A stretch of DNA of 64,000 nt, taken from NCBI GenBank assembly GCA_963824735.1, contig CAWGQH010000009.1:12142-76141 (forward strand), given 5' to 3'. The notes under the pieces are model-generated. The model saw only the letters and a list, made by a program, of their open reading frames with translations. It did no database searches and had not been told where the DNA came from. The translations under genes and the position numbers were made by a program. Origin of the DNA: an uncultured Chloroflexia bacterium. GTDB taxonomy: Bacteria; Chloroflexota; Limnocylindria; Limnocylindrales; CSP1-4. Shown here one piece after another: positions 15,438 through 56,034 of the stretch (positions are counted from its first letter, which is position 1; the number at the start of each line of letters is the position of its first letter).

Positions 15438-16268
15438 GCAGGCCGGCCGAAGTCGCCGAGCGGGCGGACGAGGTCGAGGACAAGGCGAGCGATCTCAGCC
15501 GGCGCCTCGACCGCGACCAGGTGCGCGACGCCCGGCACGACCACGAAACGAGCGCCTGGAACGTTCGCCTCGAGATGGCGCCCGAACAGTTCGACGTACG
15601 AGAAATCGAGCGCGCCGTGGACGAACAGGATCGGCATCGTCAGGCGGTCGAGCCGTTCGGCGGCGGGCGGGTCGAGCGGCGCCTTGCGACCGAAGACGCG
15701 GCCCGCATCGTTCGTCGCGCGGACCATCGGTCGGAGGAACGCGCGCACCTCCCCGGGTAGCCGCTCCACCGGCTGGTCGACCCCCGCGCCCCACAGCGCA
15801 AGCTCGAAATCGGTCAGGGCCTCGATGTCACCAGCCTGGTCGATCTCCTCATAGCGCTGCTCGACTGCCTCGTCGCGCGGCGACATCTGGACGTCGAGGC
15901 CGCCGATGCCCGAGGCGAGCTGGACCAGCGCCGCGACGCGATCGGGGTGACTCACCGCGAGGTCGAGCGCGATCTGACCGCCCTGCGAGTTGCCCACGAG
16001 GGCCGCTCGCTCGATAGCCGAACGCGTCCAGCACGGCGAGCAGGTCGTCGACGCGGCTGAACTCGACGTCCTCGGTTGCCGAGCGGCCGAACCCCCGGGC
16101 GTCGTAGCGGATCGTGCGATAGCCGGCGTCCGTCAGCAGCGGAACGAACGGTTCCCACACGCGCGAATCGACGACGCCTGCGTGCAGCAGCACGATCGGC
16201 GGTCCGTCGCCCTCTCCGACGGCGTACAGGCGGCCACCGGGCACCGGGATCATCCGTTCGTCGCGCAT
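15434..16268 (-). CDS. Alpha/beta hydrolase (frameshift near 16016)
   Basis: [14 protein letters not shown], nucleophile elbow GNSQGG, HGALD and VAH. The two track ORFs join after removing one base. Confidence 0.85.
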
Positions 16269-29707: not shown

Positions 29708-32435
29708 GTGCCGCTGAAGGACTACCACCGCAAGCGCGACTTCACCAGGACGCCCGAGCCCGCGGGCGACGCCCGGGACGCGGATGAACGTGATGGCACC
29801 GGGCCCTCACGATCCGGCCAATTCGTTGTCCAGCGCCACCGTGCCACGCGCCTGCACTATGACTTCCGGCTCGAGATCGAGGGCGTCCTGGTCTCGTGGG
29901 CGGTCCCCAAGGGCCCGACCCTCGATTCGACCCAGCGGCGCATGGCGGTCCACGTCGAGGACCACCCGATCGAGTACTTCGACTTCGAAGGCGTCATCCC
30001 CGCGCGGCAATACGGCGCCGGCGACGTGATCGTCTGGGACTGGGGCACCTGGGAAGGGGAGGCGCCCACGCTCGACGGGCGCAAGGCGATCGCGGACGGC
30101 GAGCTCAAGTTCGTGCTCAAGGGCGAGAAGCTGCGTGGCCGGTTCACGATCGTCCGGACCGGCGGCCGCCGCGGCGCGGAGACCGGCCGGCCATTCGAGG
30201 ACGATTCCGAGCAATGGCTGCTCATCCACAAGCGCGGGCCCGAGTCCCTCGAGGGTTGGGACGCCGAGGACTTCCCGACGAGCGTCAAGACCGGTCGCAC
30301 GAACGACGAGGTCAAGGTCAACAAGGACGCGATCTGGATCAGCCAGGCGCCCGCCGGCGAGGCCGAGATCGACCTGTCGCGGGCACGCGAGGCGCGGATG
30401 CCAAACCACGTCGAACCGATGCTCGCCACCCTCGCCAGCAAGGCCTTCGACGACGCCGACTGGCTGTTCGAGATCAAGTGGGACGGCTTTCGCGTGCAGG
30501 CCGTGGTCCGCGCCGGCGACGTGCGGCTGTTCACCCGGAACCTCAAGGACGCCGAGACGTATTTCGGGCGGCTGCTGTCACCCCCGAGCTGGATCGACGC
30601 CCGCGAGGCCATCGTCGACGGGGAGGTGGTCGCGCTCGACGAGAACGGCGCGCCGGATTTCGGCCTCCTCCAGGAGCGGATCAGCGAGCTGCGCGCGGGC
30701 GGGCGGCGCACGTCGGGGCCGCTCGTCTACCAGCCCTTCGATCTGCTCTACCACGACGGGCGGTCGCTGCTCGAGGTGCCGCTCGAATCGCGCAAGCGCC
30801 TGCTCAAGACCGTCCTGCGCGAGCATCCCCGTGTCCGCTTCGCGTCGCACGTGGACACCAACGGGCTGGCCTTCCATGCGGCCGCCCAGGAGCGTGGTCT
30901 CGAGGGGATCGTGGCCAAGCTGCGGACCTCGCGCTACGAGCCCGGCCGTCGCTCGAGCGCGTGGCTCAAGATCAAGATCCGGCCCGAGCAGGAGCTCGTC
31001 GTCGGCGGCTGGACGCCCGGAGAAGGGAATGCCCGCGATCTCGGCGCGCTTGCGATCGGTGTCTACGAGGACGGGGCGCTGCGCTATGCCGGCAAGGTGG
31101 GCTCCGGGTTCACGGGCGCGACCCGCAAGCGCCTCATTGAGCGCCTGGCTCCGCTTGCAACCGACGACCCGCCGTTCGACCCCGCACCCGAGCGCAAGGG
31201 CGAGTTGCGCAACGTGACGTGGGTCAGGCCCGAGCTCGTGATCCGTGCCGAGCTCGGCGGCTGGTCCCGCGACAACCTCGTTCGGCAGACCTCGTTCAAG
31301 GGGATCGAGGAAGGCCGCGACCCGACGACCGTGCTTCGTGAGCGGGCGGTCGAGACCGGCGAGGCGGTGCAGGCCGCCGAAGCGTCGGCGGTCCCGCAGG
31401 CAGACGATGGAGGTCCCCCGATGCCCAGGTCCCCCGCCACACCGAAGACAGGCTCGCCCGAGCACCCGTGGGTCGCGACGAAGGAGGAGCTCGAGGCGCT
31501 CGACGGGCTCGGCAAGGAGGGCATATGGCGGGTTGGCGGCGAGGACCTCAAGCTCACCAACCTCGACAAGCAGCTGTTCCCGCCGCTCGAAGGCTCGGGC
31601 GAGGAGCCGATCACGAAGCGGGAGCTGATCCGCTACTTCGCCCGGATCGCCCCGACGATCCTCCCGCACCTCGCTGACCGCCCGCTGAACCTGAACCGCT
31701 TTCCGAACGGCGTGGGCGGCCCCGGCTTCTGGCAGAAAGACCTGCCGGACACGGTACCGGGCTGGCTGAACCGCTGGGTCGAGACCGGGGTCGAGGAGCG
31801 CGAGGATCGCAAGCCGAACACCCACCTGCTCGCCGATCGGGTCGCCACGATGTGCTGGCTCGGCAACCAGGCGGCGTTCGAGATCCACGCCTGGACGTCG
31901 AAGAAGGAAGACCCGTGGCGGCCCGACCTTCGCGCTGGTCGACATCGACCCGGGCGACAAGACGACCTGGGAAGAGACCGTCACCCTCGCGCGGCTGTAC
32001 CGGACCGCGTTCGAACACCTCGGCGTCCGTGCCTACCCGAAGCTCACCGGCAAGCGCGGCATCCAGGCCTGGATCCCGGTCGTGCCCGGCAAGTACGAGT
32101 ACGCGGACACGAGCGCGTGGGTGGAGAAGGTGTCGAAGGCGGTCGGCGCGATGGTCCCCGACCTCGTCTCGTGGGAGTGGGCGAAGGCCGGCCGGAAGGG
32201 ACGAGCCCGCCTCGACTACACCCAGAACGCGTCGATCAAGACGCTGGTGGCGCCGTACGCGGTGCGGCCGGCGGCCGGTGCGCCGGTGTCGGCGCCGATC
32301 ACCTGGGAGGAGCTGGACGACCCCGACCTGCGACCGAACCGCTGGACGATCCGCGACGTCGTCGAGCGGGTCGAGCAGGTCGGCGACCTGTTCGCCGCCG
32401 CACAGACGGACCTCCAGGAGCTTCCGAAGGTCTAG
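29708..32435 (+). CDS. ligD: LigD, domain order phosphoesterase-ligase-polymerase (frameshift near 31924)
   Basis: PE: FVVQRHRATRLHYDFRLE. LIG: EIKWDG, EGIVAK, WLKIK. POL: DIDP and LDYTQN in the shifted frame ending at 32435. Confidence 0.93.
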
Positions 32436-40725: not shown

Positions 40726-41712
40726 CTACGCCTCCGACCGCAGCAGGCGGATCTGGACCACGGCCACGATCGCGACGAGGATGAACAGGATCCACGCGAT
40801 GGCGGCGGCATAGCCCTGGTTGAAGAACTCGAAGCCCTGCTGGTACATGTACATCGAGATCGACAGGGTCTGGTCGAGCGGGCCGCCTTCGGTCATGACG
40901 AACGGCTCCTCGAACAGCTGGAGGTAGCCGATCGTCGTGATCACGACCAGGAAGAGGATCGTCGGGCGCAGCAGCGGCAGCGTCACGTTGCGGAACGCCT
41001 GCCAGCGCCCGGCGCCGTCGATCGCGGCCGCCTCGTAGAGCTGGGCCGGGATCGTCTGGAGGCCGGCGAGGAACACGATCATCGCCAGACCAAGGTTGCG
41101 CCACACGGCCATCGCGATGATGGACGGCATGGCCAGCATCGGATCGGCCAGCCAGCTCGGGCCGTCGATGCCGACTTGCGCGAGCAGCAGGTTGATCAGG
41201 CCCTGGTCGGGATTGAGCACGAACCGCCACACCACGGCGATGGCCACGATGCTGGTCACGACCGGCAGGTAGTACCCGACGCGGAAGAGTGTCCGGAATT
41301 TCTTGATCCCGCGGTCCAGCGCGAGGGCGACGGCCAAGCCGATGACCAGCGTCAGCGGCACGCCCACGATCACGAAATAGACGGTGTTGATCATCGCCTT
41401 GTGGAACTTCGGATCCTCGAGCAGCGCCTGGTAGTTGGCCAGCCCGACAAAGTCGGTGCCGAGCGGGTTGCGCAGGTCGCGCAGGCCGAAGTCGGTGAAC
41501 GACAGCACCAGCGACGCCACGATCGGCCCGGCCAGGAAGATCGTGAAGACGAGCACGAACGGGAGCGCGAAGCCCCAGCCGATGAGCTGCTCGCGGAGCC
41601 GTCGGCGCGAAAGGGGCGAGCCGAGCCCCGCGCCGGCAGGCCGGCTGCCGAGGCGACCGATGCCGGTCGCCCCCGGAACGGCCGAGCCTGCCGCGTCGCT
41701 GCGCTGGGCCAT
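40726..41712 (-). CDS. Carbohydrate ABC transporter permease (MalF-like)
   Basis: LAGLQTIPAQLYEAAAIDGA EAA motif. Confidence 0.93.
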   Translation of the reverse strand: MAQRSDAAGSAVPGATGIGRLGSRPAGAGLGSPLSRRRLREQLIGWGFALPFVLVFTIFLAGPIVASLVLSFTDFGLRDLRNPLGTDFVGLANYQALLEDPKFHKAMINTVYFVIVGVPLTLVIGLAVALALDRGIKKFRTLFRVGYYLPVVTSIVAIAVVWRFVLNPDQGLINLLLAQVGIDGPSWLADPMLAMPSIIAMAVWRNLGLAMIVFLAGLQTIPAQLYEAAAIDGAGRWQAFRNVTLPLLRPTILFLVVITTIGYLQLFEEPFVMTEGGPLDQTLSISMYMYQQGFEFFNQGYAAAIAWILFILVAIVAVVQIRLLRSEA

Positions 41713-41715
41713 GGG

Positions 41716-43044
41716 TCAGTTCCCGGTGCCGATCGAGGTCGCCGCCTCCTGCATCGCGCTGCGCAGCTTCCTCCGGCGTCGCGTCGCCGACGGTCATCCG
41801 CTCGAGCTGGTCGTTCATCGCGGTCGCGATCTCGCTCCAGGTCGAGATGGCCGGCGGGGTCTTGCCGTCCTTGAGCTGCTCGCCGAAGACAGCCACGTTC
41901 GGGTCGTCGGCAAGCTTCGGATCGTTCCACGCTTCCTGGACGGCCGGGAGGACCGGTGGCCTCCTCGTACCAGCGCACCTGGATGTCGGGCCGCGTCAGG
42001 AAGTTCACGAACGCCCACGCGGCGTCCTTGTTGTCGCAGTCCGTGTACGACGACGAGGTTGGCGCCGCCGACGAACGACGTCGCCGAGTCCTTGGCCGGG
42101 ATCGTCGAGACGCCCCACTTGCCTTCGATGTCGGCGCCGCCTGCCTCGGTGATCAGGCCGACGTGCCACGGGCCGGAGAACATCATCGGGTGGCGTGCCG
42201 CTGACGAAGGCCGGCGTGATGTCGAAGCCCTCGGGGACTTCGCTCGGGGCGAGGCCCTCCTCGAAGAACGAGTCGTAGAACGTCAGCGCCTCGATCGCCT
42301 CGGGGCTGTCGAGGGTGAACTCGCCGGCCTCGTTCATGATGTCGCCGCCGTTCGACCACAGGAACGGCACGTACTCCTGGTAGTTCTTGGTGCCGAGGCC
42401 GATGCCCCACTCGGCGCCGCCCTGCTCCTTCATCGCCTGTGGCGGTCGCCGTGAGGTCGTCCCACGTCGCGGGCGGCTCGGTGATGCCGGCCTGCCTCGG
42501 CGATGTCGGTGCGCTCGTAGAGCACGCGCGTCTCGACGTACCACGGCACGCCGTAGGCGGTGCCGTCAACGACGTTCGAGTTCCAGGCGCCTTCGAAGAA
42601 CGCCGACGGGTCGATGCCCTCGCCAACCGGCTCGATGGCGCCGGTCGCCACGAACTGGCCCATCATGTCGGTGCCCATCTGGCTGACGCACGGGGTCTGC
42701 CCGCCGCCGATCGCGGTCTGCAGCCGGGTCACCGCCTGGTCCCACGCGATCGGCGTGACCTCGACGGTCACGTTCGGGTTCTCCTCCATGAACAGGTCGG
42801 CCATCGTGCTGAGGAGCTCGCCCTCATTGCCCATGGCCCAGACCTGGAGCTCGCCCGAGGCCTCGCCCGCTGGGCTGGCTCCTGCGCTGCCGGGTGCTCC
42901 CGTCTCCCCTCCGACCGCTCCAGGCTGGCTTGCGCCGGGGCTGCCCCCGCCCTGTCCGGCATCGTTCCCGCCGCACGCCGCCGCCATGACGGCGATCGCC
43001 GCGACGAGCAGGAACGTCATCGGGTGACGTCGCATCCGCTGCAT
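41716..43044 (-). CDS. Sugar ABC substrate-binding lipoprotein (multiple frameshifts)
   Basis: Lipobox AAAC, VWAMGNEGE, YGVPWYVETR, SFVGGANL and PPAISTWSEI spread over several frames. Stop at 41716. Confidence 0.8.
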
Positions 43045-43196: not shown

Positions 43197-45179
43197 TTAC
43201 GAGGCGGGGAGGACGGTGACGCGGACCATCGTCGGCGGAACGCCGATGGAGGCCAGTGAGCCGTTGCCCGGCGTGACGACGTCGAGGATGAGCAGGTACT
43301 GGCCGGGCGCCGCCGGCACCGCGAGGCCGAGGGTGGCGTCGACGGTCGTCCCGGGCTCGAGCTTCGTCGGCAACGACGCGTCGACCGGGGCGAGGTTGCT
43401 GGTGCCGCCATCGAGCGCGACCCAGTGGCCGACGACCTGTGCATACGTGGCCGGGGAGCCACCGCCGCGCCGGCCGTGATCGACGACCGCCGCCTCGCCC
43501 CACGTCGCCGTTCCGAGGTTGGCGACGCGGACCGCCAGGTCGACGTTCGTGCCCGCGTCCAGGGTCGCGGCATCGGTCGCGAGCACCTTGGCGTCGAACG
43601 GCCCGACGATCCGAACGAGCATCGGCGACAGCAGGGCCTGGGTCGCCGCATCGTAGGCGACGCCATCGGGATCATGGAGCGTCACGGTGAGTCGGTACAG
43701 GCCGGCCGCCTTCGGCATCGTGACCTTGAAATCGACGCCGTACTTCTTGTAGTAGCCCTTGACCGGCTGCACCACGTCGCCAGTCCGCTCCGGCTGGACA
43801 AGCAGGACGTCGGCCGGCGGTGCGGCCGGCTCGGGGATCGCCTCCTCCGGCGTCGGTTGGGGCTGTTCGCGAGCCATGCGTGGGGAGTCGCCCGCGGGCT
43901 CTTCCGACGGAGCCGGCGCTCCGGCATCGTTTACCGCCGGGGCTGTCTCGTCGACCGCAGGGCTCGCCTGGGCGTCCTCCGGCGCGGATGACGGCTCGGC
44001 GGATGCCGCTGGCTCTTCGGCCGGTGCGGCCTCCGGCTCGGCGGACGCCTCCGGCTCGGTCGTGGGGGACGCCTCCGGTGCGGCCTCCGGTTCGGCGGAT
44101 GCCCCGGGTTCGGCAGTCTCCTCGTCCGGGACCTCTTCCTCGGGATCGGCCGGGACGACCGAGACGTCGATCGGATCCCAGCGGACACTCGCCTTGAGCT
44201 TTTCCGGCAGCTTGTCCCGGTCCTTGACCTTGAGCGGGATCCGCAGCAGCTGCTCGGATGCGGCGGTCGTCATGCCCCGGACCTTGGGCGCCTTGACCTT
44301 GATGCCCTGGCCGATCAGGGTCGGCTCGGCGGCTTCCGCCTCCTCCGCCGGGGTTGCCACGGTTGACGCAGCGCCGCGGCCGCTGGCGAGAACGTCCCTG
44401 GACGCCAGGCCCTTGCGAAGCACGATCGAGCGATGGAACCCGACGCGCCCCCGATCGGGGTCCATCTGTGCGACGTAACCCGGGCTGCGCTTGCTCTTGA
44501 AGGCGAAGGTGTTGCCGTGCGCCGTCGGAGCCGCGCGCCAGATCCGGTCGATGGAGCGGGAGCCCTGGAGCACCGAGCGGATCATGTAGGCCGGACTCGA
44601 GTAGGCATCCGCTGAAACCGCGGCAGCGCCGGCACGAATGAACCCGGCCGCGTAGTTGTCGACTCGCAGCTTCGCCTGCGCGAGCGTCCCCTCGGACAGC
44701 CCCGGCTCGGTATTGCCGCTGGCGTAACACAGGTGGTGGAGCAGGACGATGGCGTTCTTGGCGAGCTTGATCTGGTCGCCGACATACTTCTCGCCGAAGT
44801 ACTGGTGCCGGCTGTCGCTGACGCCGGCCACCGGGTTCAGGCCGAAGCCGTTCTGCGTGGGCGGGAAGGGGGAATCGCGGTAGCGGCTCGGAAAGCCGTT
44901 GCCGTGACCCATGTAGACCACGACCGACGCGTCCTGCAGGGCGGCCCGGACCTTCGGCCAGGTCGCGTTGGGCGACGCGATCACGGTGACGTCGGACGTG
45001 TAGCGCCGGGCGATCCGGGCGGCCTCGTCGGCCTGCGCGCGGAAGCGGTCGGTCATGCCGGGCCCAACCGGGCCAACGACGATGACGACCTTTGCAGGGC
45101 GTGCGGCGGCGGAGACGACGGGAACCCAAAGTCCCGCCACCAGGAACGCCGCGAATAGGCAGGCTAGCAGGCGTTTCAC
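43197..45179 (-). CDS. Secreted multidomain protein with caspase/gingipain-like (clan CD) His-Cys motifs, acidic linker and C-terminal Ig-like domain
   Basis: Signal peptide from GTG 45179, VVYMGHGNG..LLHHLCYASG motifs, and an E/P/A-rich linker. Confidence 0.6.
   Translation of the reverse strand: MKRLLACLFAAFLVAGLWVPVVSAAARPAKVVIVVGPVGPGMTDRFRAQADEAARIARRYTSDVTVIASPNATWPKVRAALQDASVVVYMGHGNGFPSRYRDSPFPPTQNGFGLNPVAGVSDSRHQYFGEKYVGDQIKLAKNAIVLLHHLCYASGNTEPGLSEGTLAQAKLRVDNYAAGFIRAGAAAVSADAYSSPAYMIRSVLQGSRSIDRIWRAAPTAHGNTFAFKSKRSPGYVAQMDPDRGRVGFHRSIVLRKGLASRDVLASGRGAASTVATPAEEAEAAEPTLIGQGIKVKAPKVRGMTTAASEQLLRIPLKVKDRDKLPEKLKASVRWDPIDVSVVPADPEEEVPDEETAEPGASAEPEAAPEASPTTEPEASAEPEAAPAEEPAASAEPSSAPEDAQASPAVDETAPAVNDAGAPAPSEEPAGDSPRMAREQPQPTPEEAIPEPAAPPADVLLVQPERTGDVVQPVKGYYKKYGVDFKVTMPKAAGLYRLTVTLHDPDGVAYDAATQALLSPMLVRIVGPFDAKVLATDAATLDAGTNVDLAVRVANLGTATWGEAAVVDHGRRGGGSPATYAQVVGHWVALDGGTSNLAPVDASLPTKLEPGTTVDATLGLAVPAAPGQYLLILDVVTPGNGSLASIGVPPTMVRVTVLPAS
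44023..44103 (-). repeat. Imperfect coding repeat (ASAEPEAAP) in the linker
   Basis: 27-bp units at 44023 and 44077 (period 54) on the + strand, GGTGCGGCCTCCGGyTCGGCGGAyGCC. Confidence 0.65.
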
Positions 45180-45396
45180 GACAGGTAGACACAACCCCTG
45201 TTCGATGGCATGGCGAGCGTAACCCAACTCATGGCCCTACGACCATACCTATGTGCGGTTATCTCACCCTTATGGACGCCGCCGGGTGAGCCCAGCGTTG
45301 ACAAAACGCCCCACCCGGGCCGATTGACCCATAGCGCGGGACGTGGGAGGAGCAGATCTCCCGGCCGCCGGGCTCCGCTGGGGACAAGTCGGGGCG

Positions 45397-46950
45397 TCAC
45401 TCCATCCCCTCCATGATGTGCCAGACGCCCATCATGCCGATGTCCTCGTGCTCGATGATGTGGCAGTGGATCATCGCCATCCCGGCGTAGTCCATGACCG
45501 GCATCAGCAGCTCCACGGTGCCCATGCGCGGGACGATCGTGACGTCCTTCCATGCCGGGGCCGTCGTGTAGAGACTGCGGTAGCCGGCGTCGCCGCCCGA
45601 GATCGAGAGCACCTGGGCCGAGTTGGTGTGGTGGTGGAATGGGTGGTCCATCCCGCTCGCGTTGGTGATTTCCCAGATTTCCCACGTCCCGGTTTCCGAA
45701 TGGGTCATGAAGCAGTTCTCGTGGTCGACGTAGGTGATGCCGTTGATCGCCACGCCGCCGTGACCCATCTCGAGGCTGATCCGCTTTCGCGGGAGGGCGC
45801 CCAAGTCCATGGACACGCGCGCGGCCGACGGGTCGACCGCCGCCGGGATCGACTGGTTCTGCTTGCTGCCGCTGTAGGTCAGCGTCATGAGCGTGACCTG
45901 CTGCTGGCCGCTCATCCCGCCACGGGCATACGGCATCGAGAACCACTTGTACGAACCGGACTTGCGCGACGCCTTGACAAGGATGTCGACGCGCTCGCCG
46001 GGTGACAGAAGGAGCTCGCTGACCTGGTACGGCTTGTCGAGCAGGCCGCCGTCAGTCCCGACGAGGTGCATGGCGTGGTCCTGGAGCGACAGGCGGTAGA
46101 ACCGGGCGGTCGACGCGTTGACGACCCGCCAGCGCTGGACCTGTCCGGGCGCGATCGAGAGCCGCGGATTGACCTGCCCGTTGACCATGACGGTTCCGCC
46201 CTCGAGCCCGTGCATGTAGTCCATGTGCGAGTCGTGGGCGGCGGGCTCCGAGCCGGAAAGCGTGATGTCCTTGAGGACGATGACCTTCTCGCTGAAGGCG
46301 GACAGCGCCGGCACCTCGTCCTCGACGACGAGCGGGGCCGACAGGCCGCCCCACATCTGATCTGACACGTTGCCGTGGATGTGGGGGTGGTAGAAGTTGA
46401 GATTACCCGCCGGATGCTTCGACAGGTCGTACTCGTAGACCGTGTTTTCGCCGGGAGCGAGCATGACCATCATGTTGTCCGCGTGCGTGCCGTTGGCGTT
46501 GTCGCCCGGCGACACGTGCAGGCCGTGGGTGTGGAGGTTCGTCATCCGGACGGGGTGACCGAGGTAGTTGATGGCGTCGTCGTCCGGAAGTCCGTTGCGG
46601 AAGTTGATCCGCAGGAGACGATCCCGTCGGGCGCGGATCAGTGGTCCGGGATGCGCGCCGTTGTAGGTGATGAGGTTGGCGGATGCACCGTTGACGTCGA
46701 CGGCGGCACGCCGGGCCTCGAGGGCCACCTCGACGATGCCAGGATCCGTCGACTGGTTCGCGATGAGTGCTGGCTGCCGGAAGGCCTGGCCGACCGGTGG
46801 ATCGATGATGGTGACGCCGCCTCCCATGCCTCCGCCGCCCATCCCGCCGCCGCCTGGACCGCGGGCGATCGGAGCGGCTCCCGGCAGGAGAGCTGCGGCT
46901 CCAGCCAGGGCGGCCCCGCGGATGAAAGTGCGCCTGCTGATGGCGGTCAC
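45397..46950 (-). CDS. Tat-exported three-domain multicopper oxidase (CueO/laccase-like)
   Basis: SRRTFI twin-arginine signal and Cu motifs HTHGLH, YHPHIH, HPFHHH, HCHIIEHEDIGM. Confidence 0.92.
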   Translation of the reverse strand: MTAISRRTFIRGAALAGAAALLPGAAPIARGPGGGGMGGGGMGGGVTIIDPPVGQAFRQPALIANQSTDPGIVEVALEARRAAVDVNGASANLITYNGAHPGPLIRARRDRLLRINFRNGLPDDDAINYLGHPVRMTNLHTHGLHVSPGDNANGTHADNMMVMLAPGENTVYEYDLSKHPAGNLNFYHPHIHGNVSDQMWGGLSAPLVVEDEVPALSAFSEKVIVLKDITLSGSEPAAHDSHMDYMHGLEGGTVMVNGQVNPRLSIAPGQVQRWRVVNASTARFYRLSLQDHAMHLVGTDGGLLDKPYQVSELLLSPGERVDILVKASRKSGSYKWFSMPYARGGMSGQQQVTLMTLTYSGSKQNQSIPAAVDPSAARVSMDLGALPRKRISLEMGHGGVAINGITYVDHENCFMTHSETGTWEIWEITNASGMDHPFHHHTNSAQVLSISGGDAGYRSLYTTAPAWKDVTIVPRMGTVELLMPVMDYAGMAMIHCHIIEHEDIGMMGVWHIMEGME

Positions 46951-47020: not shown

Positions 47021-50000
47021 CTACGGAAGGGTCAGGATCGGGGACGGGGTCGCATCCACCTGGGCCGAGGGCCCGAGGGCGTTGGTCGACCAGACCCTGA
47101 ACCAGTAGTTGGTGTTCCGACTCAGACCGCCGATCGTGGCGCCGGTGGCATTCGCTGCGACGTTCGTGCTGGCGACGCCGGTCGTGAAGGCGGCGTCCCT
47201 CGCTCGCTGGACGACGAAGCCGGACTCGTTGGTGGAGTTGTCGGTCCAACTGAGGACGATGCTCCGGTTGCCGCCCTGGCTCGGTCCGACGACCGCCGAG
47301 ACGCTGGACGGCGCGGACGGGATCGACACGTTCGCCATGGCGATATTGGACCAGCCCGACTTCCCGGCGACGACGGAGTTGACGGCCGCCACGCGGTACG
47401 TGTAGGTGGTGCCGAGAGCGACCGTCAGATCGGTGAACGACGTCGAGCCCGTGTTGCTGCGGGCCGGCGCCGTCGCGAGCTGGGTGAAGCTCACGCCGTC
47501 GAGCGAGCGCTCGATGACGAAGCCGGTCTCGTTGGCGGCGTTGTCCGTCCACGTCAGGTTGACCCGAACGGGGCCGCCGATGATGCCGGCGGTAAGGCCG
47601 GTCGGGGCACGGAGCACGGCGACCTCGGGCGAGATCGACTGGGCGGTCATGGACGGATACTGCCCGCCGTAGCCGATGGTGTTCTGGGCCACGACGCGGT
47701 AGGCGAGGTGCTTGAGTTCCAGCGGAACGTCGCGTCCGTGTAGGAGCGTGTCTCGTGGATGTTCGGCTGGTCGAGCGGCGAGAGCACCGGGTTGGGCAGG
47801 TTGGCCCACGCTCCGGCTCCGGCCTTTCGCTGGACGACGAACGACGTCTCGTTGATCGAGTTGTCGTTCCAGCGTGAACGTGAACCGGCGGTTGTTGCCG
47901 CTGCCGGTGATGACCCACGTGAGCCTGTCCGCCTTGAGCGGCGGCGAGCGCGACCGAGCCACGGGCCGCATCATGTCCATCTCTTCATGGCTCAGGATGT
48001 GGCAGTGCTAGACGTACTCCCAGCCGAAGTTGACGAGCTGCGTTGGTGATCGGCGCCGTCGGGTTGCCTGGCCGGATCGAAGTTGTTGAAGCCCATCGCG
48101 TCGCGCCGATCGGCATCATCGGGTTGAGCGGCCGGATCGCTGTTCGGGACTTCGAACGGGACCTCGGGGATGATCGGCCGGAGGGCAACGATGGTGTCCT
48201 GCGAGCGGACTGATCGCGGACGGTGTCCTTCCAGCCGAGCTCGGTCTTGTCGGGTCGGGATGATGATGTTGTCCCAGGTGACCCGGTTGAGCACCTGCAC
48301 GTCGAACAGGTGGAAGTGGATCGGGTGGGTGTCCACGCCGTTGTGCGTGATCTTCCAGACCTGGGTGCCGTCCGAGCCGACGTGATCGGCGAGACTTGAC
48401 GTCGCGACGTGCGCCGTTGGCGTCGTAGGCGACGTTCTGCTTCGGCAGGTTCGTCGCGTCGATGAGCTCCGTCGGCGGGTTCACGAACGGGTACGAGCGT
48501 GACGTTCTGCTGACCCGGGTGTCGGCGGCTGGGCCTCGAGCCCGAGGTTCGCCATCATCCGCCCGAACTCGTCGAAGGTCGTCGAGTTCATCTCGTCGTG
48601 CATGCGCCTTCGGCTCGACGGGGATCGCCAGTCTTGTGCGTTCGGTTGCGCCAGGGTGTTGAAGCCGAAGTTCTGGTGTCGTTGATCCGAGACCAGGCCC
48701 GTCGCAGCGCGTGCAGGGTTGCTGTCGGGCGGTGTTGCAGTTGCTGCTGGCGACGAAGTTGGTGCCGTAGGCCGAGTTGTACGGCGGCCTGCCCGACGAT
48801 GATCGGGTGCTGACGCTCGACTCGAACACGCCGGTACCGTCGGCGTGATGCCTGAACGCGTTCTGCAGCTTCGACAGGTTGAAGCCGGCAGCCGGGGCGG
48901 TGTCGGCGATCTTGACCTGCATGATCGGTCCGGGTGTTCGGGCCGTAGCCGGGCAGGATCGTCGGCGCGCCGACCGGGCTGAGGTCCGGGGCGCCCGTGT
49001 AGTAGTCGTAGGACGGGACGCGGGCCGGGAACGCAGCCGGCGCGTCGTTGTACAGGATCAGCGTCTTGCCGGCGAACTTCGAGAAGTCGACGATCGCGTC
49101 GGCCCGCTCGGCGGGCGCCAACAGCAGCGAGTGCTGGTCGACGTTGCCGACGTCGAACCGGGTCGGATCGGTGATCCAGGTGGTCGGCTGCTGGCCGTCC
49201 ACGATCACCGGGGCCGGCAGGAAGCCGCCCTCGGTGCCGATCTGGATCCAGTCCGGTCCGGCGGTCGCGACTCCTGGACCGGGTCGGGAAGACCACCGGA
49301 TCGGTCTGGGCCGCGGCGAGCTCGGCGGGGTTCGAGCGCGACCTCGGTCGCCCGATCAGCGTCGCCGTTGGCGTTGAGCCCGGTGCTGGCCGTGGTCGGA
49401 TCGCCGACGTACCACTGGAAGTTGAAGAAGCGGTCGTTCGCCGCGTTGAGCATGCGGAGGCGATAGGCCTTCGGCTCCAGGGTCACGGTCGGGTAGGCCG
49501 TCCCGTTGACGATCGGCGTGTCGTTGAACTGTTCCATCCCCGCCGAGATGTTCGGCGTTCCGGGGATCTGCTGCGGCTCGCAGAACGGGTCGGTCTGGTA
49601 CTGCCACGTCGCCGGGTCGTCCAGGTTGCAGGGGCGTCGGCGTCGTCAGTGCGCGGCGTTGTCGGGCCCTCGGGTCCTTGCCGTAGTACGGGTTCGGATC
49701 GTCCGTCGGCCGGCGGCCAGAACCACGGCCCGTACATCCAGCGCCCGAAGGCGCTCATGCCGCCCGGGTCGCCGGGGTTCTGGGCGGGCATGTACACGTG
49801 GTGGTACCAGAAGGTTCCCGAGGCCACCCCAGCGGCTCGTGTCCCAGGTCGGATCCTGCGCCGCGAGCTGGGCATCGTCCGGAACGAAGGTGCGGTCCTG
49901 GACGATGAGCGGGATGCTGTCGGCCGGGCCGGGGATGGTCGCCGGTGTCGATGAGCTTCTTCTCGGTCGGCGTCCCTGAGCACGTAGCCGGCGGCCTCGC

Positions 50001-53000
50001 CGGCGTACACGTTGAGGCGGGTGATGCCCCACGAGTGGTCGTGGTAGAACATCAGCCGGGCGCTCTGCTGATTGGTGTAGTAGAAGGTCTGCGCATCCGT
50101 CATCGGCCGCCGTGCAGATCGGGCATGTCGGGCACGTTGCGCACGCTCACGCCCTGCGGCCACGGCGGTCGTCTCGTTGGCCGGGGTGATCCACTGGTGG
50201 GGCGTGCCGTCGCTGATCCACGGGGTGTTGCCACCGTGCAGGTGCACTTCGGCCCGGTTGTCACTTGAAGCAGCTCTCCGGCTTCGGGTAGTCGCTGCAG
50301 GCCGGATTGCGGATCGTCATCCATGACGGTGCTGTCGTCGAGTCGGCTCGGCCATGTTCATCGGGCCCATGCCCGAACCCATCGAGCGTCGAGTCGGTCG
50401 GCAGGAACAGGTCGCCCTCCGTGCCCGTCGGCAGCAGGTTGTAGAAGACGATCCGGACCGGCTGGTCCTTCGGGGCGACGATCGTCGGTCCGAGGTAGTG
50501 CGGCGGTGTCGACGCCGAGCCCCTGGGTGACCCCGTCGGGCATGAGGACCGGGGTCGTCGTCCCATCAGAGCAGTGTTGGCACCGGCCAGGGATGGCTGC
50601 TCGCCTGGGACGCGGCCGTCGAGAGCTGGACGTAGCCGCGGACCAGCGTCGGCGGCAGATCGCTGTGAATCTGACGTCGCGGTGCTGCACCACGGCCGAT
50701 GACGTAGTAGTCGGCAGCGATGCCGCGGAACGTCGTCGTGTCCGGCTCGGCCGAGCGGGATGTACTGGCCGAGGTTGTTCGCGCAGGCTCGGTGGCAGGC
50801 CAACCGGGCAGGGTGTCGACGAACTTGCGGATGCCCGGCCGGTGAGGTAGCCGGACCCGCCGGCCGCGTGTGGTCGAGTCCCGATGACCGCGCCGAAGTC
50901 GGTCGTGGCCGTCGCCGCTCGCGCCCGTGCCCGCGCCGCGTGTCACCGAAGGTCGACGGTCGGAGCGGACGTGTAGCCGGCGCCGAACGTGTCGAGGGCG
51001 ACGGTCGGCGATCTCCAGGGTCGTCGTTCCGGCCGTGACCGTGCGACGGGCGTGGTTGACCGGGTCGAACAGCGTCCCGTCGCGGATCACGACTTCGGGG
51101 CCGAGGTGTAGCCGGAGCCCGGGTCGGTGACGGTCACGCCGGCGACGTGAGCGGGTCGTCCGGGTCGGGTGCAGGTTGCAGTCAGGGATGGGTCGGCGCA
51201 GCACCGCCACCCGTGCGCCTGACGTCCCGTTCGGGTCGTCAGGCAGGTCGAAGTCGACGGTCGGGAACTGTGTAGCCGCTTCCCGGGTCGGTGACCGTGA
51301 CCGCATCCACGCCGCCGTTGACCGTGCCCGTGGCCTGGGTTGCGCCGGCGGTGACCGCGACGCTGGCGCCGAACCCGTAGGTCCGCGCTTGGCCGAAGTC
51401 GGGGAAGCCTGCGCTGCCGAAGGTCACCGTGTCGCCCTGGGCCGGAGCGGCCGGGGCGGGATAGCTGAAGCGGTCGAGGCCGACGAGCGTGTCGACCGGG
51501 ATGCCGGCCCCGTAGAAGCCGAGGACGTCGCCAGCCTGGACCGCCACCGGTCGAACGGGATAGGTCGCCAGCTCGGATGCGACCCCGGAGAGCGCCGGGA
51601 CCGTGAGCTCGCCGCTGTCGAAGACGACGTCGTACTCGTCCGCGACTCCGGTCGGCCGGAGGACATACGCGTGGAACTTCTGGTCGGCCGACGGCACGGG
51701 CGCACCGCCCGGCGTGGCCTGGTTCCACGACTGGAACTCGGTGAGGTTCCCGGCTGGAAGTGCCGTCGGAACGACGACGAAGACCGGGACGAGCGGTGCC
51801 GCCGGCTGCGTCAGGTTGGCGTCGTCGAGGGTGACCGTCATGGGCGGGTTCGCGAAGACGATGACCCACGGCGTCGAACCGGAGACGCTCGCGCCGGGTC
51901 AGCCCGGCCTCGACCTCGGCCGCGGTCGTGTCCAGGCGATCGCCGCGGAGGTAGTGCCGTCGACCGTCAGGGTGAAGGTGCCACCAGTGGCACTTCCGAC
52001 TGTTGCCTCATAGGTGGCCGCGGGGCTGACACTTTCGCCCGTCGCGGCCCGGGTAAGGCCAGCGAAGCTGGCGTCGACGGCCGTCGGGGCCGCTGTGAAG
52101 GTCATGACCCAGGGATCGCCGGTCGCACCGGAGCCCGTTACGGTTGCGGCGCTGAGCGCGGAGAGGGCGGCCTCCACCTCGAGGGCCGTCGCGTTCCAGG
52201 CAATCGGTGCGGTTAGGGTCCCGTCGATGTCGAGCGTGAAGCTGCCGCCGGAGGCGCTGCCGACGTCGACGTTCCAAACATCAGGCGTCGCGCCGACTGG
52301 AGCACTCGCATCCGCCACACCGCGGGTCGACGCGGCGCCGTCGATGGAGACGACAGGGTCGTTGGCGTTGAACACGATGGTCGACGGGCCATTGCCCGTG
52401 ACGGTGGCGCCCGCGAGCTCCGCCTCGATGGCAGCCGCCGACGCGTCGAATGCGATCGGTCCGCTCGTGGAGCCGTCGACCGTCAGGGTGAAGTTGCCGC
52501 CGGTCGCATTGCCGGCGGTGACAAAGAACGTATGGTTGGCGACCTGCGTCACCGCGGCGGGAACAACCGCGGGCGGCGCCACGTAGTCGGTGGCGAAGGC
52601 GCGGTCGATCATCGGGTTCCCGACGACGGTGTTCGTGACGACGCCGCCCCCCCCCGAGAACGTGACCGTCGGCGCGGTGTAGCCGCTGCCGCCCGCCGTG
52701 ACGTTGACGGAGGTCACGGCGCTTGACGCGGTGACGACCGCGCTCGCGGTCGCGCCCGTGCCGGCGCCGGTGATGTTCACGGTGGCGTTCGTGTAACCGC
52801 TCCCTGGGTCGGTGATCGTGATGCCGGTGACCTCACCGTTGGCGCCCACCGTGGCCGTCGCGGTGGCGCCGAGGCCGTCGCCGACGATTTCGACATCAAC
52901 GTCGGCGGTCGTCAGGGGACTCAGCGCCCAGTTCGGGTACGGCCCGAAGTAGTGGGGTACCTTCGATTTATCGGTCGGTCCGGCCGGCAGGCTCACCGCA

Positions 53001-53104
53001 GGGGCATCGTCCCCTGGAGTGGGAGCTACCTGCGCCGCCGCCGAGCCCACCGTCGTGAGCCCGAGCACCAGTGCGGCCACAAAAGCCGCGAGCTTCCTTG
53101 CCAT
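47021..53104 (-). CDS. Giant secreted multicopper oxidase with beta-rich repeat stalk and C-terminal FN3 domains; heavily frameshifted, with one in-frame TAG
   Basis: Signal peptide, HYFGPYPNWALSP, GSGYT repeats, RKFVDTLPG, HLHGG, FYHDH, HPIHFH, EYV*HCHILSHEEMDM (TAG at 48008-48010) and two FN3-like modules. Pieces lie in many frames. Confidence 0.75.
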
Positions 53105-53397: not shown

Positions 53398-53780
53398 ATG
53401 GGTCGCCGCGATGAACTCGATAGCGCGGCCGCGGGGGTCGACATCGGCCGCTGCTGCCGGGAGAGCGGCTGGTCGCGCATCGCGGGGCCGCGACCTTCGA
53501 TCGCCGCCAGACGCGACGCCAGCGCCGGCCCGTCGGTGAGCTCTACCTGACGTCAGCCAGGCTGCTCTTCGTCAGCTCGCCGATGGCATCGATCCCGCTC
53601 GATTCGATCGAGGATTCCATCCTGATCGGGGATCGGATCCAGCTCATGGTCCGCGGCGGCGTCGGCGTATTGATCGACGCCGACCGAGCGCGCCTCCTCC
53701 GCGAGCAGATCGCCGCCGCCAGGGCCATCCGAAGGAAAACGCGGAACGATCCGCCGAAGGATCAGCCCTCGCCCCGATAG
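53398..53780 (+). CDS. Small PH/GRAM-like domain protein (frameshift near 53435-53450)
   Basis: TACAGT-N6-ATG at 53398. Downstream frame reads PLLPGERLV..GELYLTSARLLF..IPLDSI. The track's 53583 ORF is the C-terminal half. Confidence 0.55.
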
Positions 53781-54426
53781 TGCTGCGACGCCTCGACCCT
53801 GTTCCGGACACCGAGCTTGTGGAGCACGCTGCTGACGTGCGTTTCGACCGTTCGGGTCGAGATCGTGAGCGCCCCGGCGATCTCGCGATCGGTCATGCCT
53901 TCGGACAGCAGGCGCAGGACCTCCCGCTCGCGTGAGCTCAGGCCGTGGTCAGTCAAGGGATCGTGCCCGGAGGGAGCGTGGCGGGCGCGATCGGCGAGGT
54001 GCCGGACCAGACGTGCGGCCATCCGCCGCGGGATTGCCAGATCGCCGGCATACGCACCTCGCACCGCGCGGAGCAGCGCATCCGGCGTCAGGTCCTTGGT
54101 GAGGTACCCGCTCGCGCCGAACTCGATGGCGTCCAGCACGTCGTCGTCTGCGCTCGACACGGTGAGCATGACGAAGCGTGTCTCAGGCAGTCGGGGCACG
54201 AGCTCCCGAACCAGCTGCACGCCCGAGGCACCCGGCAGCCCGATGTCCACGAGCATCACGTCCGGTCGCGTCCTGAATCGCGATCTGCGTGCGCGTCCTC
54301 GGCCGATCCTGCTTCGCCCACGAGCTCGATATCGGGCGCGTCGATTGCCTGGCGAACCGCCGATCGGACCAGCGGATGGTCATCGACGAGCATGACGCGG
54401 ATGCGTCGTTGCGTGGAGGGCGTCAA
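53762..54426 (-). CDS. NarL/LuxR-family response regulator (frameshift at ~54270-54290)
   Basis: GGAGG then TTG 54426, VMLVDDH, VDIGLPG, GYLTKD and LSSREREVL..STRTVETHV motifs. Confidence 0.88.
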
Positions 54427-56034
54427 CGCAGCGCCTCCAAAGGCCTTGATTCGGCTTTGGGCGCTTCCTTCGACGAGTCCGGCATGGGCTGCAACGGCGT
54501 CGCGCGGGCGCCGGCACGACCGGCGCCCGTACCTCGACGCGGGTACCTCCGCCGGGGCGGGAGTCGATGCTGCAGCTCACCACCGATCATCGCCGCCCGC
54601 TCGCGCATCGCGAGCAGCCCGAAGTCCGACTGCCCCGGGCTCGGCCACCTCGAAGCCGCGGCCGTCGTCCTGGATCACCAGGACGAACCAGCCATCCTCC
54701 ATCCGCGCTCGGATCCGGGCGATCCTGGCGTCAGCGTGCCGGTGGACATTGGCGAGGGCCTCCTGGGCGATCCGCAGCAGCTCAGCCTGGGTGCGGACGG
54801 GCAGCTCGGGCAGGTCCGGATCGCACTCGACCCGGACGCGCTGCCCGAAGCGGTCCTCGAAGTCCTCGGTGTATCTGGTCAGCAAGTGGCCGAATGAGCC
54901 GTCCTCCGCCGCGGCGATCCGCATCGCCATGACTGCCTGGTGCGCCTCGGCCAAGCCCTGGTCGATCGCATCGCTCGCATCGGAGATGAGCGCACGCGCT
55001 TCCGGATTCTTCCCCACCGCGGCGGACAGCCGCCCGATCTTGAGCTTGGCCAACCAGAGGTCCTGCGTGAGTCCGTCGTGGAGCTCGCGCGAGAGACGAG
55101 CTCGCTCCTCAAGCGCAGCCCGGGACATCTCGACCGCGTGCAGCTCCTCCAGCGTCGCGTTTGCCTGGCGGAGGGCACGCAAGAGTGCGCGGGCCTCGGC
55201 CTCGATGGCCAGCAGCAGGGTGACATCGAAGGCGAGCCACAGTGCGTCGGCGATCGTCACCGGGCCGGGATGGCTTCCCGCGGTGCTCGCACCGATCGCC
55301 ATCGCGAATGCGGCGAAGAGCAGCCCGACGGTCACGAAGGCGTCCGCGACCGATCGATCGCGTCGCCAGAGGCGCCGGTAGACCACGACCGCGCCCAGGA
55401 ACAGGGCCGCACCGACCAGTTGCAGCGCGGAGCCGAGCGGCGTGATGTCCGCACCACCTGCCCCGGTTTCGACGTGCTCGAGGAGCGGCGGGAGAAGGCT
55501 CGAAGCGGGATGGGCGAAGACAGCGATGGCGACCGCGGCCGCGATCCCCAGGATCGACGACCCGGGCTTGGGTGAGTCTCCTGCCGGCCGCGGAGCGCGA
55601 AGACGCCACCGATGACCAGCAGGGCCGCCGCAACGAGCCGTCCCGCGATGAAGACATAGCAGCTGTTCGTAGCCGGGCTCCGAGGAGGTCAGCGGGGCGG
55701 TCGGATCGATGCCCACCGTGTCGATGACTGCTCGGAGATAGGTGATCGCCAGGACCAGGAACGCAGTCGCCTGATACAGCGCAAAGGGATGCTGGCCCTC
55801 CCGGAACCGGATCCATGAGAGCGTGGCAACGAGGCTGGTGACGACGAGCGCGATGGAATCGAGGGCGAGATCGAGGGACGGGGCCACGATCCGTTCCGGC
55901 AAAAACGGGAACGCGACGAATGTCATGGAAACGCCGCTCAGGCCGACCAGCGTGGCCAGCAACGCACCGTCGAGTTTGTCGATGGCGCGCCGAGCCGTCC
56001 GCGATGATTTGCGCGGCCGTTGACTGGCGCTCAC
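54423..56034 (-). CDS. Membrane sensor histidine kinase, HisKA_3 type (frameshifts at ~54570-54610 and ~55580-55660)
   Basis: About seven TM helices, [35 protein letters not shown] and GGGTRV motifs. Last frame ends at the TTGA overlap with the regulator. Confidence 0.85.

What the first reader, a model, noticed from the sequence alone, without database searches (positions are those of the whole stretch)
47021..53104. Giant (~2000-codon) surface multicopper oxidase with a repeat stalk, hidden by frameshifts
Seen: all four Cu-binding signatures (HLH ~50240, HDH ~50040, HPIHFH ~48315, HCHILSHEEMDM ~47990). An insertion of roughly 700 codons of beta-rich repeats lies between the N-terminal PNWA.SP motif and the oxidase core, and two FN3-like domains end the protein. 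Knowledge: large FN3-bearing multicopper proteins such as Geobacter OmpB are linked to extracellular metal-oxide redox, and CotA/MnxG-type enzymes oxidise Mn(II). Inference: a stalked extracellular metal or organic oxidase, the most system-like novelty in the window.
Basis: partly seen in the sequence, partly recalled or inferred. Interest (0 to 1): 0.72.

Follow-up and report, generated by a model that had tools for sequence, protein, structure and literature searches.

The report
OmpB-like giant copper oxidase, misassembled
This is a real gene of about 2000 codons for a secreted copper oxidase of a widespread, already annotated family related to Geobacter OmpB, and its many frameshifts are almost certainly errors of a rough long-read assembly, not decay.

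Summary
One gene lies on the minus strand from 53104 to 47021. It has a Sec signal peptide, an invariant PHYFGPYPNWALSP motif and a spacer of about 700 codons. A CotA-type three-domain multicopper oxidase core follows, with all four copper motifs at the stated places. Three FN3 domains end it, not two. The reading frame changes at least 45 times between 51930 and 47706, and there is one in-frame TAG.

Intact orthologs exist in the same genus: 1926 aa in G005 and a contig-cut copy in G004. The family holds thousands of proteins of 1.3 to 2.4 kaa from Chloroflexota, Actinomycetota and Geobacterales. A 1305-aa Geobacter protein, probably OmpB, is 44% identical over the core.

I read the lesions as assembly errors. 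rpoB and ileS of this genome are also split. Dense patches of frameshifts occur genome-wide and cross gene borders. The damaged stretch shows no excess substitutions. 270 of 272 invariant core columns are kept.

Verdict: an ordinary new member of a known but biochemically unstudied family. The substrate is unknown. Interest is low to moderate.

The parts
47021..53104 (-). Whole gene for the giant multicopper oxidase, about 2000 codons. As assembled it is broken by at least 45 frame changes and one TAG.
   Evidence: Collinear with the intact 1926-aa ortholog P0001 (G005) and with the contig-cut P0002 (G004).
53030..53104 (-). Sec-type signal peptide MARKLAAFVAALVLGLTTVGSAAAQ. It has no lipobox and no twin arginine.
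   Evidence: Read from the translation. The cleavage site is inferred.
52916..52963 (-). Invariant N-terminal motif KVPHYFGPYPNWALSP.
   Evidence: P, H, Y, G, P, P, N, W, A and S are invariant in 63 family members. Coordinates.
52560..52915 (-). First block of roughly 35-aa 'GSGY' beta repeats (ITITDPGSGYTNATVNI, VNVTAGGSGYTAPTVTF).
   Evidence: Confident beta structure in the ortholog model, pLDDT above 88. Conserved in the family consensus. No Pfam match.
51816..52500 (-). Three repeats of about 85 aa of the type FTL(T/D)(V/I)DG..IA(F/W)....A..(I/V)EA.L. The ortholog in G005 has two. Approximate limits.
   Evidence: Read from the translation. The window has 249 extra bases here relative to G005. 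Low model confidence. No Pfam match.
51350..51815 (-). Beta-sandwich (jelly-roll) domain of about 155 aa that resembles lectins, CBMs and adhesin domains. Approximate limits.
   Evidence: pLDDT mostly above 90 in the ortholog model. Only weak Foldseek matches: CBM4, gingipain adhesin, the Cwp84 lectin-like domain and TNF-like folds, with E 0.1-1.
50830..51349 (-). Second block of 'GSGY' repeats (about four units), heavily frameshifted in the window.
   Evidence: Confident beta structure in the ortholog model.
47969..50829 (-). CotA-type three-cupredoxin-domain oxidase core of about 950 aa, running from RKFVDTLP to HCHILSHEEMDMM. It holds all copper ligands and an axial Met.
   Evidence: Motif coordinates. 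PDB sequence hits to CotA at E 3e-27. Foldseek to CotA at E 1.6e-26, TM 0.68-0.71 normalised by CotA length. 270 of 272 invariant columns are kept.
48008..48010 (-). In-frame TAG at the Tyr codon directly before HCH.
   Evidence: The window reads GAG TAC GTC TAG CAC TGC CAC. The orthologs have Tyr here.
47024..47930 (-). Three FN3-like domains, each with W.DN..NE.GF.V.R. The first is frameshifted and the last two are intact.
   Evidence: Pfam fn3 at E 6e-10 with 2 stretches on 47024-47704. The repeat pattern is seen. The C-terminal tail is about 320 aa in most of the 80 loci.
53765..56034 (-). Upstream NarL-type two-component system. The multi-TM HisKA_3 kinase lies at 56034-54577 as the ORF is called. 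The response regulator lies at about 54390-53765. Both also carry frameshifts.
   Evidence: Pfam HisKA_3 and HATPase. Response regulator read. Indels relative to G005. A response regulator lies upstream of the oxidase in 36 of 80 loci and a kinase in 20 of 80. A terminator-like hairpin lies at 53754-53741.
45397..46950 (-). Second oxidase, intact: a 517-aa Tat-exported three-domain multicopper oxidase with a Gly/Met-rich stretch after the signal. It starts 71 nt downstream of the giant gene.
   Evidence: Pfam Cu-oxidase 1, 2 and 3 plus TAT_signal. Nearest NCBIfam model is CueO, below its cut-off. Present in G004 at 91% identity, absent in G005.
43197..45227 (-). Secreted protein of about 660 aa with no family match. 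It is conserved downstream of the oxidase in the closest relatives.
   Evidence: No Pfam or NCBIfam match. Homologs lie downstream in G004, G005, L014 and L021.

Best explanation
The stretch encodes a single Sec-exported multicopper oxidase of about 2000 residues. It belongs to the OmpB/MofA-like branch of CotA-type three-domain oxidases.

Shown:
- All ligands of the type-1 copper (His, Cys, His and an axial Met) and of the trinuclear cluster are present.
- The core of the intact ortholog is predicted to fold like CotA.
- Intact full-length orthologs exist in the same genus.

Inferred mechanism. A substrate gives one electron at a time to the type-1 copper. Electrons pass through the Cys-His bridge to the trinuclear cluster, where O2 is reduced to water. 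The N-terminal GSGY beta repeats, the lectin-like jelly roll and the three C-terminal FN3 domains hold the enzyme on a solid or polymeric partner: a mineral, the cell envelope or extracellular polymer. The NarL-type two-component system directly upstream probably controls expression.

My best guess for the substrate is mineral-associated Fe or Mn redox, as proposed for OmpB and MofA (about 0.5). Phenolic or humic polymers come second (about 0.3).

The 45 or more frame changes and the TAG are errors of a patchily unpolished long-read metagenome assembly, not decay (about 0.88). The organism most likely carries an intact gene.
For: Identity:
- Orthologs at 71-77% identity are open over 1926 aa (G005) and 1083 aa up to a contig end (G004).
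- CotA is the best solved relative by sequence and by fold.
- All copper ligands are invariant in 72 family cores and present in the window.
- The core is 44% identical over 1254 columns to the 1305-aa Geobacter ORF.
- Family size: 4303 and 6369 hits and 536 genome stretches.

Artefact:
- rpoB and ileS of the same assembly are each split over two frames.
- There are about 980 frameshift-like junctions genome-wide. More than 15 patches are as dense as this one, in kdp, ABC-transporter and dehydrogenase genes.
- In this window a binding-protein gene, a hydrolase, LigD and the adjacent kinase and regulator genes are also shifted.
- Codon-position divergence in the shifted core (0.108/0.089/0.239) equals that in the clean tail (0.101/0.105/0.259). 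The window is as far from G005 as G004 is.
- 270 of 272 invariant and 474 of 488 near-invariant core columns survive in a read-through.
- The assembly has 19 contigs but only 80% marker completeness.

Context:
- The two-component system is the most conserved neighbour.
Against: - The artefact reading is therefore indirect.
- The indel density here, about 11 per kb over 4.2 kb, is far above the window's background.
- The indel signature is odd for a plain long-read error. It is insertion-biased and mostly not in homopolymers, and 14 of 23 single-base insertions turn C into CG.
- The function rests on homology alone. No member with this N-terminal architecture has been characterised, and no anchoring motif (LPXTG, CWB2, lipobox) is present.
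- The identity of the Geobacter ORF as GSU1394 rests on my recollection of the genome's length and on the gene's position.
Confidence: 0.85

Rival explanations
1. The lesions are real. The gene is a recently inactivated pseudogene in this lineage.
For: At least 45 frame changes and one premature stop. The gene is accessory: it was found in only 3 of 6 genomes of the genus and, apart from one marginal hit (G007, E 5.6e-4), in no other genus of the family. No reads were available to contradict it.
Against: There is no excess of substitutions at codon positions 1 and 2, and no acceleration relative to G004. 270 of 272 invariant residues are kept. A decay that produced about 50 indels should have added hundreds of substitutions. 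The same kind of lesion hits rpoB, ileS and many housekeeping operons. It also runs across gene borders into the two-component genes.
Confidence: 0.07
2. The enzyme is intact in vivo but works on organic substrates (phenolics, humic or lignin-like polymers, pigments) and not on metals. The accessory domains would bind polysaccharide or plant or soil polymer.
For: The closest solved relatives are CotA and bilirubin oxidases, which oxidise organic substrates. The jelly-roll domain weakly resembles CBM4 and lectin-like modules. The family is common in soil Actinomycetota such as Cellulomonas, Streptomyces and Terrabacter. There are no cytochrome c or MofB/MofC-like neighbours and only one EXXE motif.
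Against: The only genetically studied relatives (OmpB/OmpC, and MofA by association) are tied to Fe and Mn (PMC5566968). The family also occurs in Geobacter, Geomonas and Desulfobulbales. The Foldseek matches of the accessory domain are not significant.
Confidence: 0.3
3. The pieces come from a chimeric assembly of several genes.
For: The pieces lie in many frames in a metagenome assembly.
Against: The order and spacing of all segments match one intact ortholog from residue 1 to 1926. The flanks are syntenic on both sides: kinase and regulator upstream, the 660-aa secreted protein downstream.
Confidence: 0.01
4. The frame changes are read through by programmed recoding.
For: None beyond the preserved coding sequence.
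Against: More than 45 events share no slippery motif or structure and go in both directions. The same lesions occur in unrelated genes. The orthologs need no recoding.
Confidence: 0.005

Closest known systems
OmpB (GSU1394) and OmpC of Geobacter sulfurreducens: outer-surface multicopper proteins needed for reduction of insoluble Fe(III) oxide (Mehta 2006 and Holmes 2008, as cited in PMC5566968 and PMC3495685)
   Same: A CotA-type core of about 950 aa with the same four copper motifs, 44% identical over 1254 aligned columns. An FN3-like domain follows the core. The protein is secreted. A NarL-type two-component system sits next to the gene in Geobacter hydrogenophilus, as it does here.
   Different: The 1305-aa Geobacter protein starts directly with MRKFVDTLP. 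It lacks the PHYFGPxPNWAxSP motif, the GSGY repeats, the FTLTVDG repeats and the jelly roll. It ends in one FN3 plus an ASH/HYDIN-type Ig domain and not in three FN3 domains. The host here is a probable monoderm Chloroflexota without an outer membrane. Only one EXXE motif is present. A closer subfamily, 63-78% identical in the core, exists in G. hydrogenophilus and Geomonas with a short N-terminal spacer.
MofA of Leptothrix discophora (putative Mn(II) oxidase, mofABC operon)
   Same: The literature reports it as homologous to OmpB and as a very large secreted multicopper oxidase (PMC5566968).
   Different: It was not compared here because no sequence was available. No MofB-like (peptidyl-prolyl isomerase) or MofC-like (cytochrome c) gene lies next to this gene: there is no CXXCH in the flanking ORFs, and their Pfam matches are those.
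CotA laccase / bilirubin oxidase of Bacillus (PDB 1GSK and relatives)
   Same: The three-cupredoxin-domain fold, the copper ligands, the HCHIL.HE...MM signature with axial Met, and an N-terminal KFVD.LP start.
   Different: CotA has 513 aa. This core is about 440 aa longer through insertions. About 760 N-terminal and 320 C-terminal residues of accessory domains are added. Sequence identity is about 18% in the structural alignment.
MnxG / MoxA-type Mn oxidases
   Same: They are multicopper oxidases linked to metal oxidation.
   Different: MnxG has six cupredoxin domains (established knowledge). This protein has one CotA-like set of three. I did not file it there.

Membership tests
Three-domain multicopper oxidase, CotA / bilirubin-oxidase type | Four copper-binding motifs: HxH, HxH, HxxHxH and HCHxxxHxxxxM | tested here: met
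   HLH 50244-50236, HDH 50043-50035, HPIHFH 48327-48310 and HCHILSHEEMDM 48007-47972. All are invariant in 72 relatives.
Three-domain multicopper oxidase, CotA / bilirubin-oxidase type | Three cupredoxin domains arranged as in CotA | tested here: met
   The model of the intact ortholog's core (pTM 0.76, mean pLDDT 66) matches CotA at Foldseek E 1.6e-26, with TM 0.68-0.71 over the CotA length. This was tested on the ortholog, not on the window's broken copy.
Three-domain multicopper oxidase, CotA / bilirubin-oxidase type | An open reading frame that can give the protein | tested here: inconclusive
   The frame is broken at least 45 times as assembled. The evidence points to assembly error, but no reads could be checked.
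Three-domain multicopper oxidase, CotA / bilirubin-oxidase type | Copper binding and O2-dependent oxidase activity | not testable with these tools
   This needs expression and assay.
OmpB/OmpC-type large multicopper proteins (Geobacter) | Full-core sequence homology to GSU1394 | tested here: met
   44% identity, E = 0, over P0001 residues 682-1825 against the 1305-aa ORF at 1.53 Mb of a 3,814,128-bp Geobacter genome. That this ORF is GSU1394 rests on the genome length and gene position as I recall them.
OmpB/OmpC-type large multicopper proteins (Geobacter) | FN3 domain after the oxidase core | tested here: met
   Pfam fn3 at E 6e-10. Three repeats are visible.
OmpB/OmpC-type large multicopper proteins (Geobacter) | EXXE 'Fe(III)-binding' motifs, as stressed in the literature | tested here: not met
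   There is one EXXE in the read-through and one in P0001. The motif is weak as a criterion.
OmpB/OmpC-type large multicopper proteins (Geobacter) | Outer-surface location and need for Fe(III) oxide reduction | not testable with these tools
   Only a Sec signal peptide is seen.
MofA (mofABC) type | Neighbouring mofB (PPIase) and mofC (cytochrome c) genes | tested here: not met
   The flanks hold a two-component system, a Tat multicopper oxidase and an unknown secreted protein. No CXXCH occurs in ORFs between 43000 and 56200.
MnxG-type six-domain Mn oxidase | Six cupredoxin domains | tested here: not met
   There is a single CotA-like set of three domains. The rest is FN3 and other beta modules.
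Pseudogene (true decay) | Relaxed constraint: excess changes at codon positions 1 and 2, and loss of invariant residues | tested here: not met
Pseudogene (true decay) | Lesions supported by the reads | not testable with these tools

The most novel reading that the evidence does not exclude
The subfamily with the invariant N-terminal PHYFGPxPNWAxSP motif and a modular spacer of 45 to 700 residues is functionally distinct from Geobacter OmpB. The motif may dock onto the oxidase core, for example near the substrate site. The spacer modules would then loop out as binding arms. This would make a cell-surface metal oxidase or electron-exchange enzyme of monoderm soil bacteria (Chloroflexota, Actinomycetota), switched by a dedicated membrane-sensing NarL-type system.
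Probability: 0.2. Interest if true: 0.5.

Novelty: new member of a known kind. Interest (0 to 1): 0.25.

Why it matters
There are two practical lessons.

First, this assembly carries patchy, dense indel errors, even in rpoB and ileS. Any 'pseudogene', 'split gene' or 'missing start' finding from this genome should therefore be distrusted until reads are checked.

Second, the family itself deserves a bench study. It has thousands of members across soil and sediment phyla, a core conserved at about 62% mean column identity between phyla, and several cultured hosts (Cellulomonas, Terrabacter, Streptomyces, Georgenia, Geomonas). It still has no known substrate. Its only studied relatives, OmpB and OmpC, are tied to Fe(III) oxide reduction by an unknown mechanism. 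This particular copy adds nothing new beyond a long variant of the N-terminal spacer.

Tried and rejected
- Gapped tblastn ran through the frame changes and was useless for locating them. Ungapped HSPs, a DNA alignment and my own frameshift-aware alignment were used instead.
- A GC3 hidden Markov model under-counts frame changes in dense patches. It calls them non-coding, so its genome-wide numbers are rough.
- Pfam and NCBIfam give nothing for the N-terminal modules, even at E below 1.
- Foldseek against the PDB gave no significant match for the N-terminal model. The FTLTVDG repeats were modelled with low confidence.
- Rfam found nothing in the window, and no sigma-70-like promoter was found.
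- I considered that the +1 insertions are both alleles of third-position C/G polymorphisms written into the consensus of two co-assembled strains. The codon-phase bias and the C/G spectrum fit this. The TAC-to-TAG stop does not, so the cause of the error signature stays open.
- No source names G. sulfurreducens OmpB among the best hits. The link was therefore made through an unnamed Geobacter genome.
- gyrA was not found in the assembly.
Full report
**What is there.**
The window has about 70% G+C, so long spurious ORFs abound. On the minus strand between 53104 and 47021, the three frames together spell one long protein. The order of its parts is:
- a Sec-type signal peptide;
- KVPHYFGPYPNWALSP;
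- short 'GSGY' beta repeats;
- three FTLTVDG-type repeats of about 85 residues;
- a domain of about 155 residues;
- more GSGY repeats;
- RKFVDTLP and a long oxidase core;
- three W.DN..NE.GF.V.R modules.

Pfam recognises only part of the third cupredoxin domain and one FN3.

**The breaks.**
Two genomes of the same genus carry the gene intact. G005 has an open frame of 1926 aa (P0001, 71% identity over the oxidase-core query). G004 has the last 1083 aa up to a contig end (P0002, 77% identity).

Against these guides, a frameshift-aware alignment finds 45 frame changes between 51265 and 47706: 33 of +1, 3 of +2 and 9 of -1. It misses several compensating pairs that are visible, so the true number is about 50 to 55.

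One TAG replaces a Tyr codon directly before HCH. The first 1.17 kb and the last 0.68 kb of the gene are clean. So are the next two genes downstream.

**Artefact or decay.**
Four lines of evidence point to assembly error.
1. Essential genes of the same assembly are broken in the same way. rpoB is split over two frames and so is ileS. rpoC is intact.
2. A rough scan finds about 980 frameshift-like junctions in 3.35 Mb. More than 15 patches are at least as dense as this one, and they lie in kdpABC, ABC transporters, an aldehyde dehydrogenase and glycosyltransferases. Inside this window a sugar-binding protein gene (41.7-42.4 kb), a hydrolase, LigD, and the kinase and regulator just upstream of the oxidase are also shifted. 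The patches ignore gene borders.
3. There is no sign of relaxed constraint. Divergence from G004 at codon positions 1/2/3 is 0.108/0.089/0.239 in the shifted core and 0.101/0.105/0.259 in the clean tail. The window is no further from G005 than G004 is.
4. A read-through keeps 270 of 272 columns that are invariant in 72 family cores, and 474 of 488 columns conserved at 90% or more. The two losses lie in a stretch that is still out of frame.

The assembly has 19 contigs but only 80% marker completeness, which fits broken marker genes. An earlier first-stage note on another piece of this genome also reports pervasive frameshifts; I tested that claim genome-wide myself. I put the artefact reading at about 0.88 and true decay at about 0.07.

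**An unexplained detail.**
The indels are insertion-biased and mostly not in homopolymers. Against G004, 15 of 23 single-base insertions are G. Fourteen of them turn C into CG, nearly always right after a codon's third position. The same is seen in the two-component genes.

One could read this as both alleles of C/G third-position polymorphisms written into a mixed-strain consensus. C/G is 61% of third-position differences. The TAC-to-TAG stop does not fit that reading, so I leave the cause open.

**What the protein is.**
By sequence the nearest solved structures are CotA and bilirubin oxidases. An AlphaFold model of the intact ortholog's core (pTM 0.76) matches CotA over the whole CotA length at Foldseek E 1.6e-26 and TM 0.68-0.71. 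It is therefore a three-domain oxidase with about 440 residues of insertions, not an MnxG-like six-domain enzyme.

The family is very large:
- 4303 proteins at E of 1e-10 or better among the 8000 candidates scored;
- 6369 proteins at E of 1e-30 or better with a Geobacter member as query;
- 536 stretches in species-representative genomes.

Hosts include Chloroflexota, many Actinomycetota (Cellulomonas, Terrabacter, Streptomyces, Kribbella, Georgenia), Geobacter and Geomonas, Desulfobulbales and others. Sources call these proteins 'multicopper oxidase domain-containing protein' or 'FtsP/CotA-like multicopper oxidase'. No curated NCBIfam model covers them.

**Family anatomy.**
In 80 loci the core from KFxDxLP to HCH is constant at 900-950 aa, and the C-terminal tail is usually about 320 aa. 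The distance from the PNWA motif to the core falls into discrete classes of about 45, 96, 260, 440, 550 and 625 residues. The window's spacer, about 700 codons, is the longest. It has one FTLTVDG repeat more than G005.

The basic 260-residue spacer is made only of GSGY repeats. The 440 class appears to add the jelly-roll domain, inferred from the depth of the alignment there. The longest classes add the FTLTVDG repeats.

The model of the spacer is confident for the GSGY repeats and the jelly roll, and poor for the FTLTVDG repeats. Its PDB matches are weak and point to lectin, CBM or adhesin-like sandwiches. 'Stalk' is therefore not shown; 'modular binding arm' is as good a description. One relative ends in six TIG and three CWB2 cell-wall-binding domains, which supports surface display in the family. 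This protein has no recognisable anchor.

**Relation to OmpB.**
The literature describes OmpB (GSU1394) as an outer-surface multicopper protein with an FN3 domain that is needed for Fe(III) oxide reduction and is homologous to MofA (PMC5566968; PMC3495685). OmpB/OmpC homologs have already been reported in Microbacterium genomes (PMC12227724).

Nine of 12 species of the Geobacter genus have a relative of 1224-1326 aa. The 1305-aa ORF at 1.53 Mb of a 3,814,128-bp single-contig genome is 44% identical to P0001 over the whole core. That length, and a position fitting locus tag 1394, are what I recall for G. sulfurreducens PCA. This ORF lacks the PNWA/GSGY N-terminus and ends in one FN3 plus an Ig-like domain.

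G. hydrogenophilus and Geomonas also carry a closer subfamily, 63-78% identical in the core, with the PNWA motif and a short spacer. Shared function is not shown.

**Surroundings.**
All of these genes lie on the minus strand:
- a multi-TM HisKA_3 kinase and a NarL-type regulator, followed by a terminator-like hairpin;
- a 660-nt gap;
- the giant oxidase;
- 71 nt later, an intact Tat-exported 517-aa multicopper oxidase with a Gly/Met-rich stretch, nearest to CueO and therefore perhaps a cuprous oxidase;
- a secreted protein of about 660 aa with no family match.

The regulator is the most conserved neighbour of the oxidase across the family, in 36 of 80 loci, and it is also present in G. hydrogenophilus. 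The Tat oxidase is present in G004 but absent in G005, while the unknown secreted protein is kept in both. No cytochrome c, PPIase or SCO1-like gene is nearby.

The gene is accessory. It was found in 3 of 6 genomes of the genus and, apart from one marginal hit (G007, E 5.6e-4), in no other genus of the family. A same-genus genome is labelled 'Chloroflexota bacterium'.

**Verdict.**
The feature is an ordinary member of a large, already annotated family, and its only unusual trait is a long variant of a modular N-terminal spacer. Interest is 0.25.

Noticed in passing
G000 C11:94784-98066 and C2:168388-171088 (outside the window): rpoB and ileS of this assembly are each split over two reading frames. 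gyrA was not found at all. The assembly has many sharp-edged patches of dense indels.
   Followed up: partly
window 41700-42440, minus strand: An ABC-transporter sugar-binding protein gene is read across three or four frames within about 700 nt (…MMFSGPWHVGLI… / …DKDAAWAFVNFLT… / …LPAVQEAWNDPKL…). A hydrolase near 16015 and a LigD-like gene near 31930 are shifted in the same way.
   Followed up: partly
window 47706-51930 and 54270-54630: The indel signature is insertion-biased, mostly not in homopolymers, and mostly turns C into CG just after codon third positions. Several insertions create GATC from ATC or GTC. The one stop is TAC to TAG. The cause is unknown (mixed-strain consensus or a context-specific read error).
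   Followed up: partly
window 49632-49707: There is a 37-nt insertion and an 8-nt deletion relative to G004, inside the otherwise invariant YGPI.NPYY stretch of the core. The insert is not a local duplication.
   Followed up: partly
window 45397-46950, minus strand: An intact Tat-exported 517-aa multicopper oxidase with GGGGMGGGGMGGG after the signal peptide, nearest to CueO. It is present in G004 (91% identity) but absent at this place in G005.
   Followed up: partly
window 43197-45227, minus strand: A secreted protein of about 660 aa with no Pfam or NCBIfam match and a long Pro/Glu/Ala-rich linker. It is conserved directly downstream of the oxidase in G004, G005 and two further Chloroflexota loci. 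Another first-stage note suggests a clan CD peptidase dyad; I did not test this.
   Followed up: no
L068 and G031 (Geobacter hydrogenophilus): This genome carries two paralogs: a 1386-aa one with the PNWA motif and a short spacer, next to a HisKA_3/NarL system and a di-haem cytochrome c peroxidase-like gene, and a second one of about 1262 aa on another contig.
   Followed up: partly
Alignment A1 (63 N-terminal regions), positions 6-18 of the first sequence: The motif PHYxGPxPNWAxS is invariant, although the spacer behind it varies from 45 to 700 residues. It is absent from the probable G. sulfurreducens OmpB. Its role is unknown.
   Followed up: no
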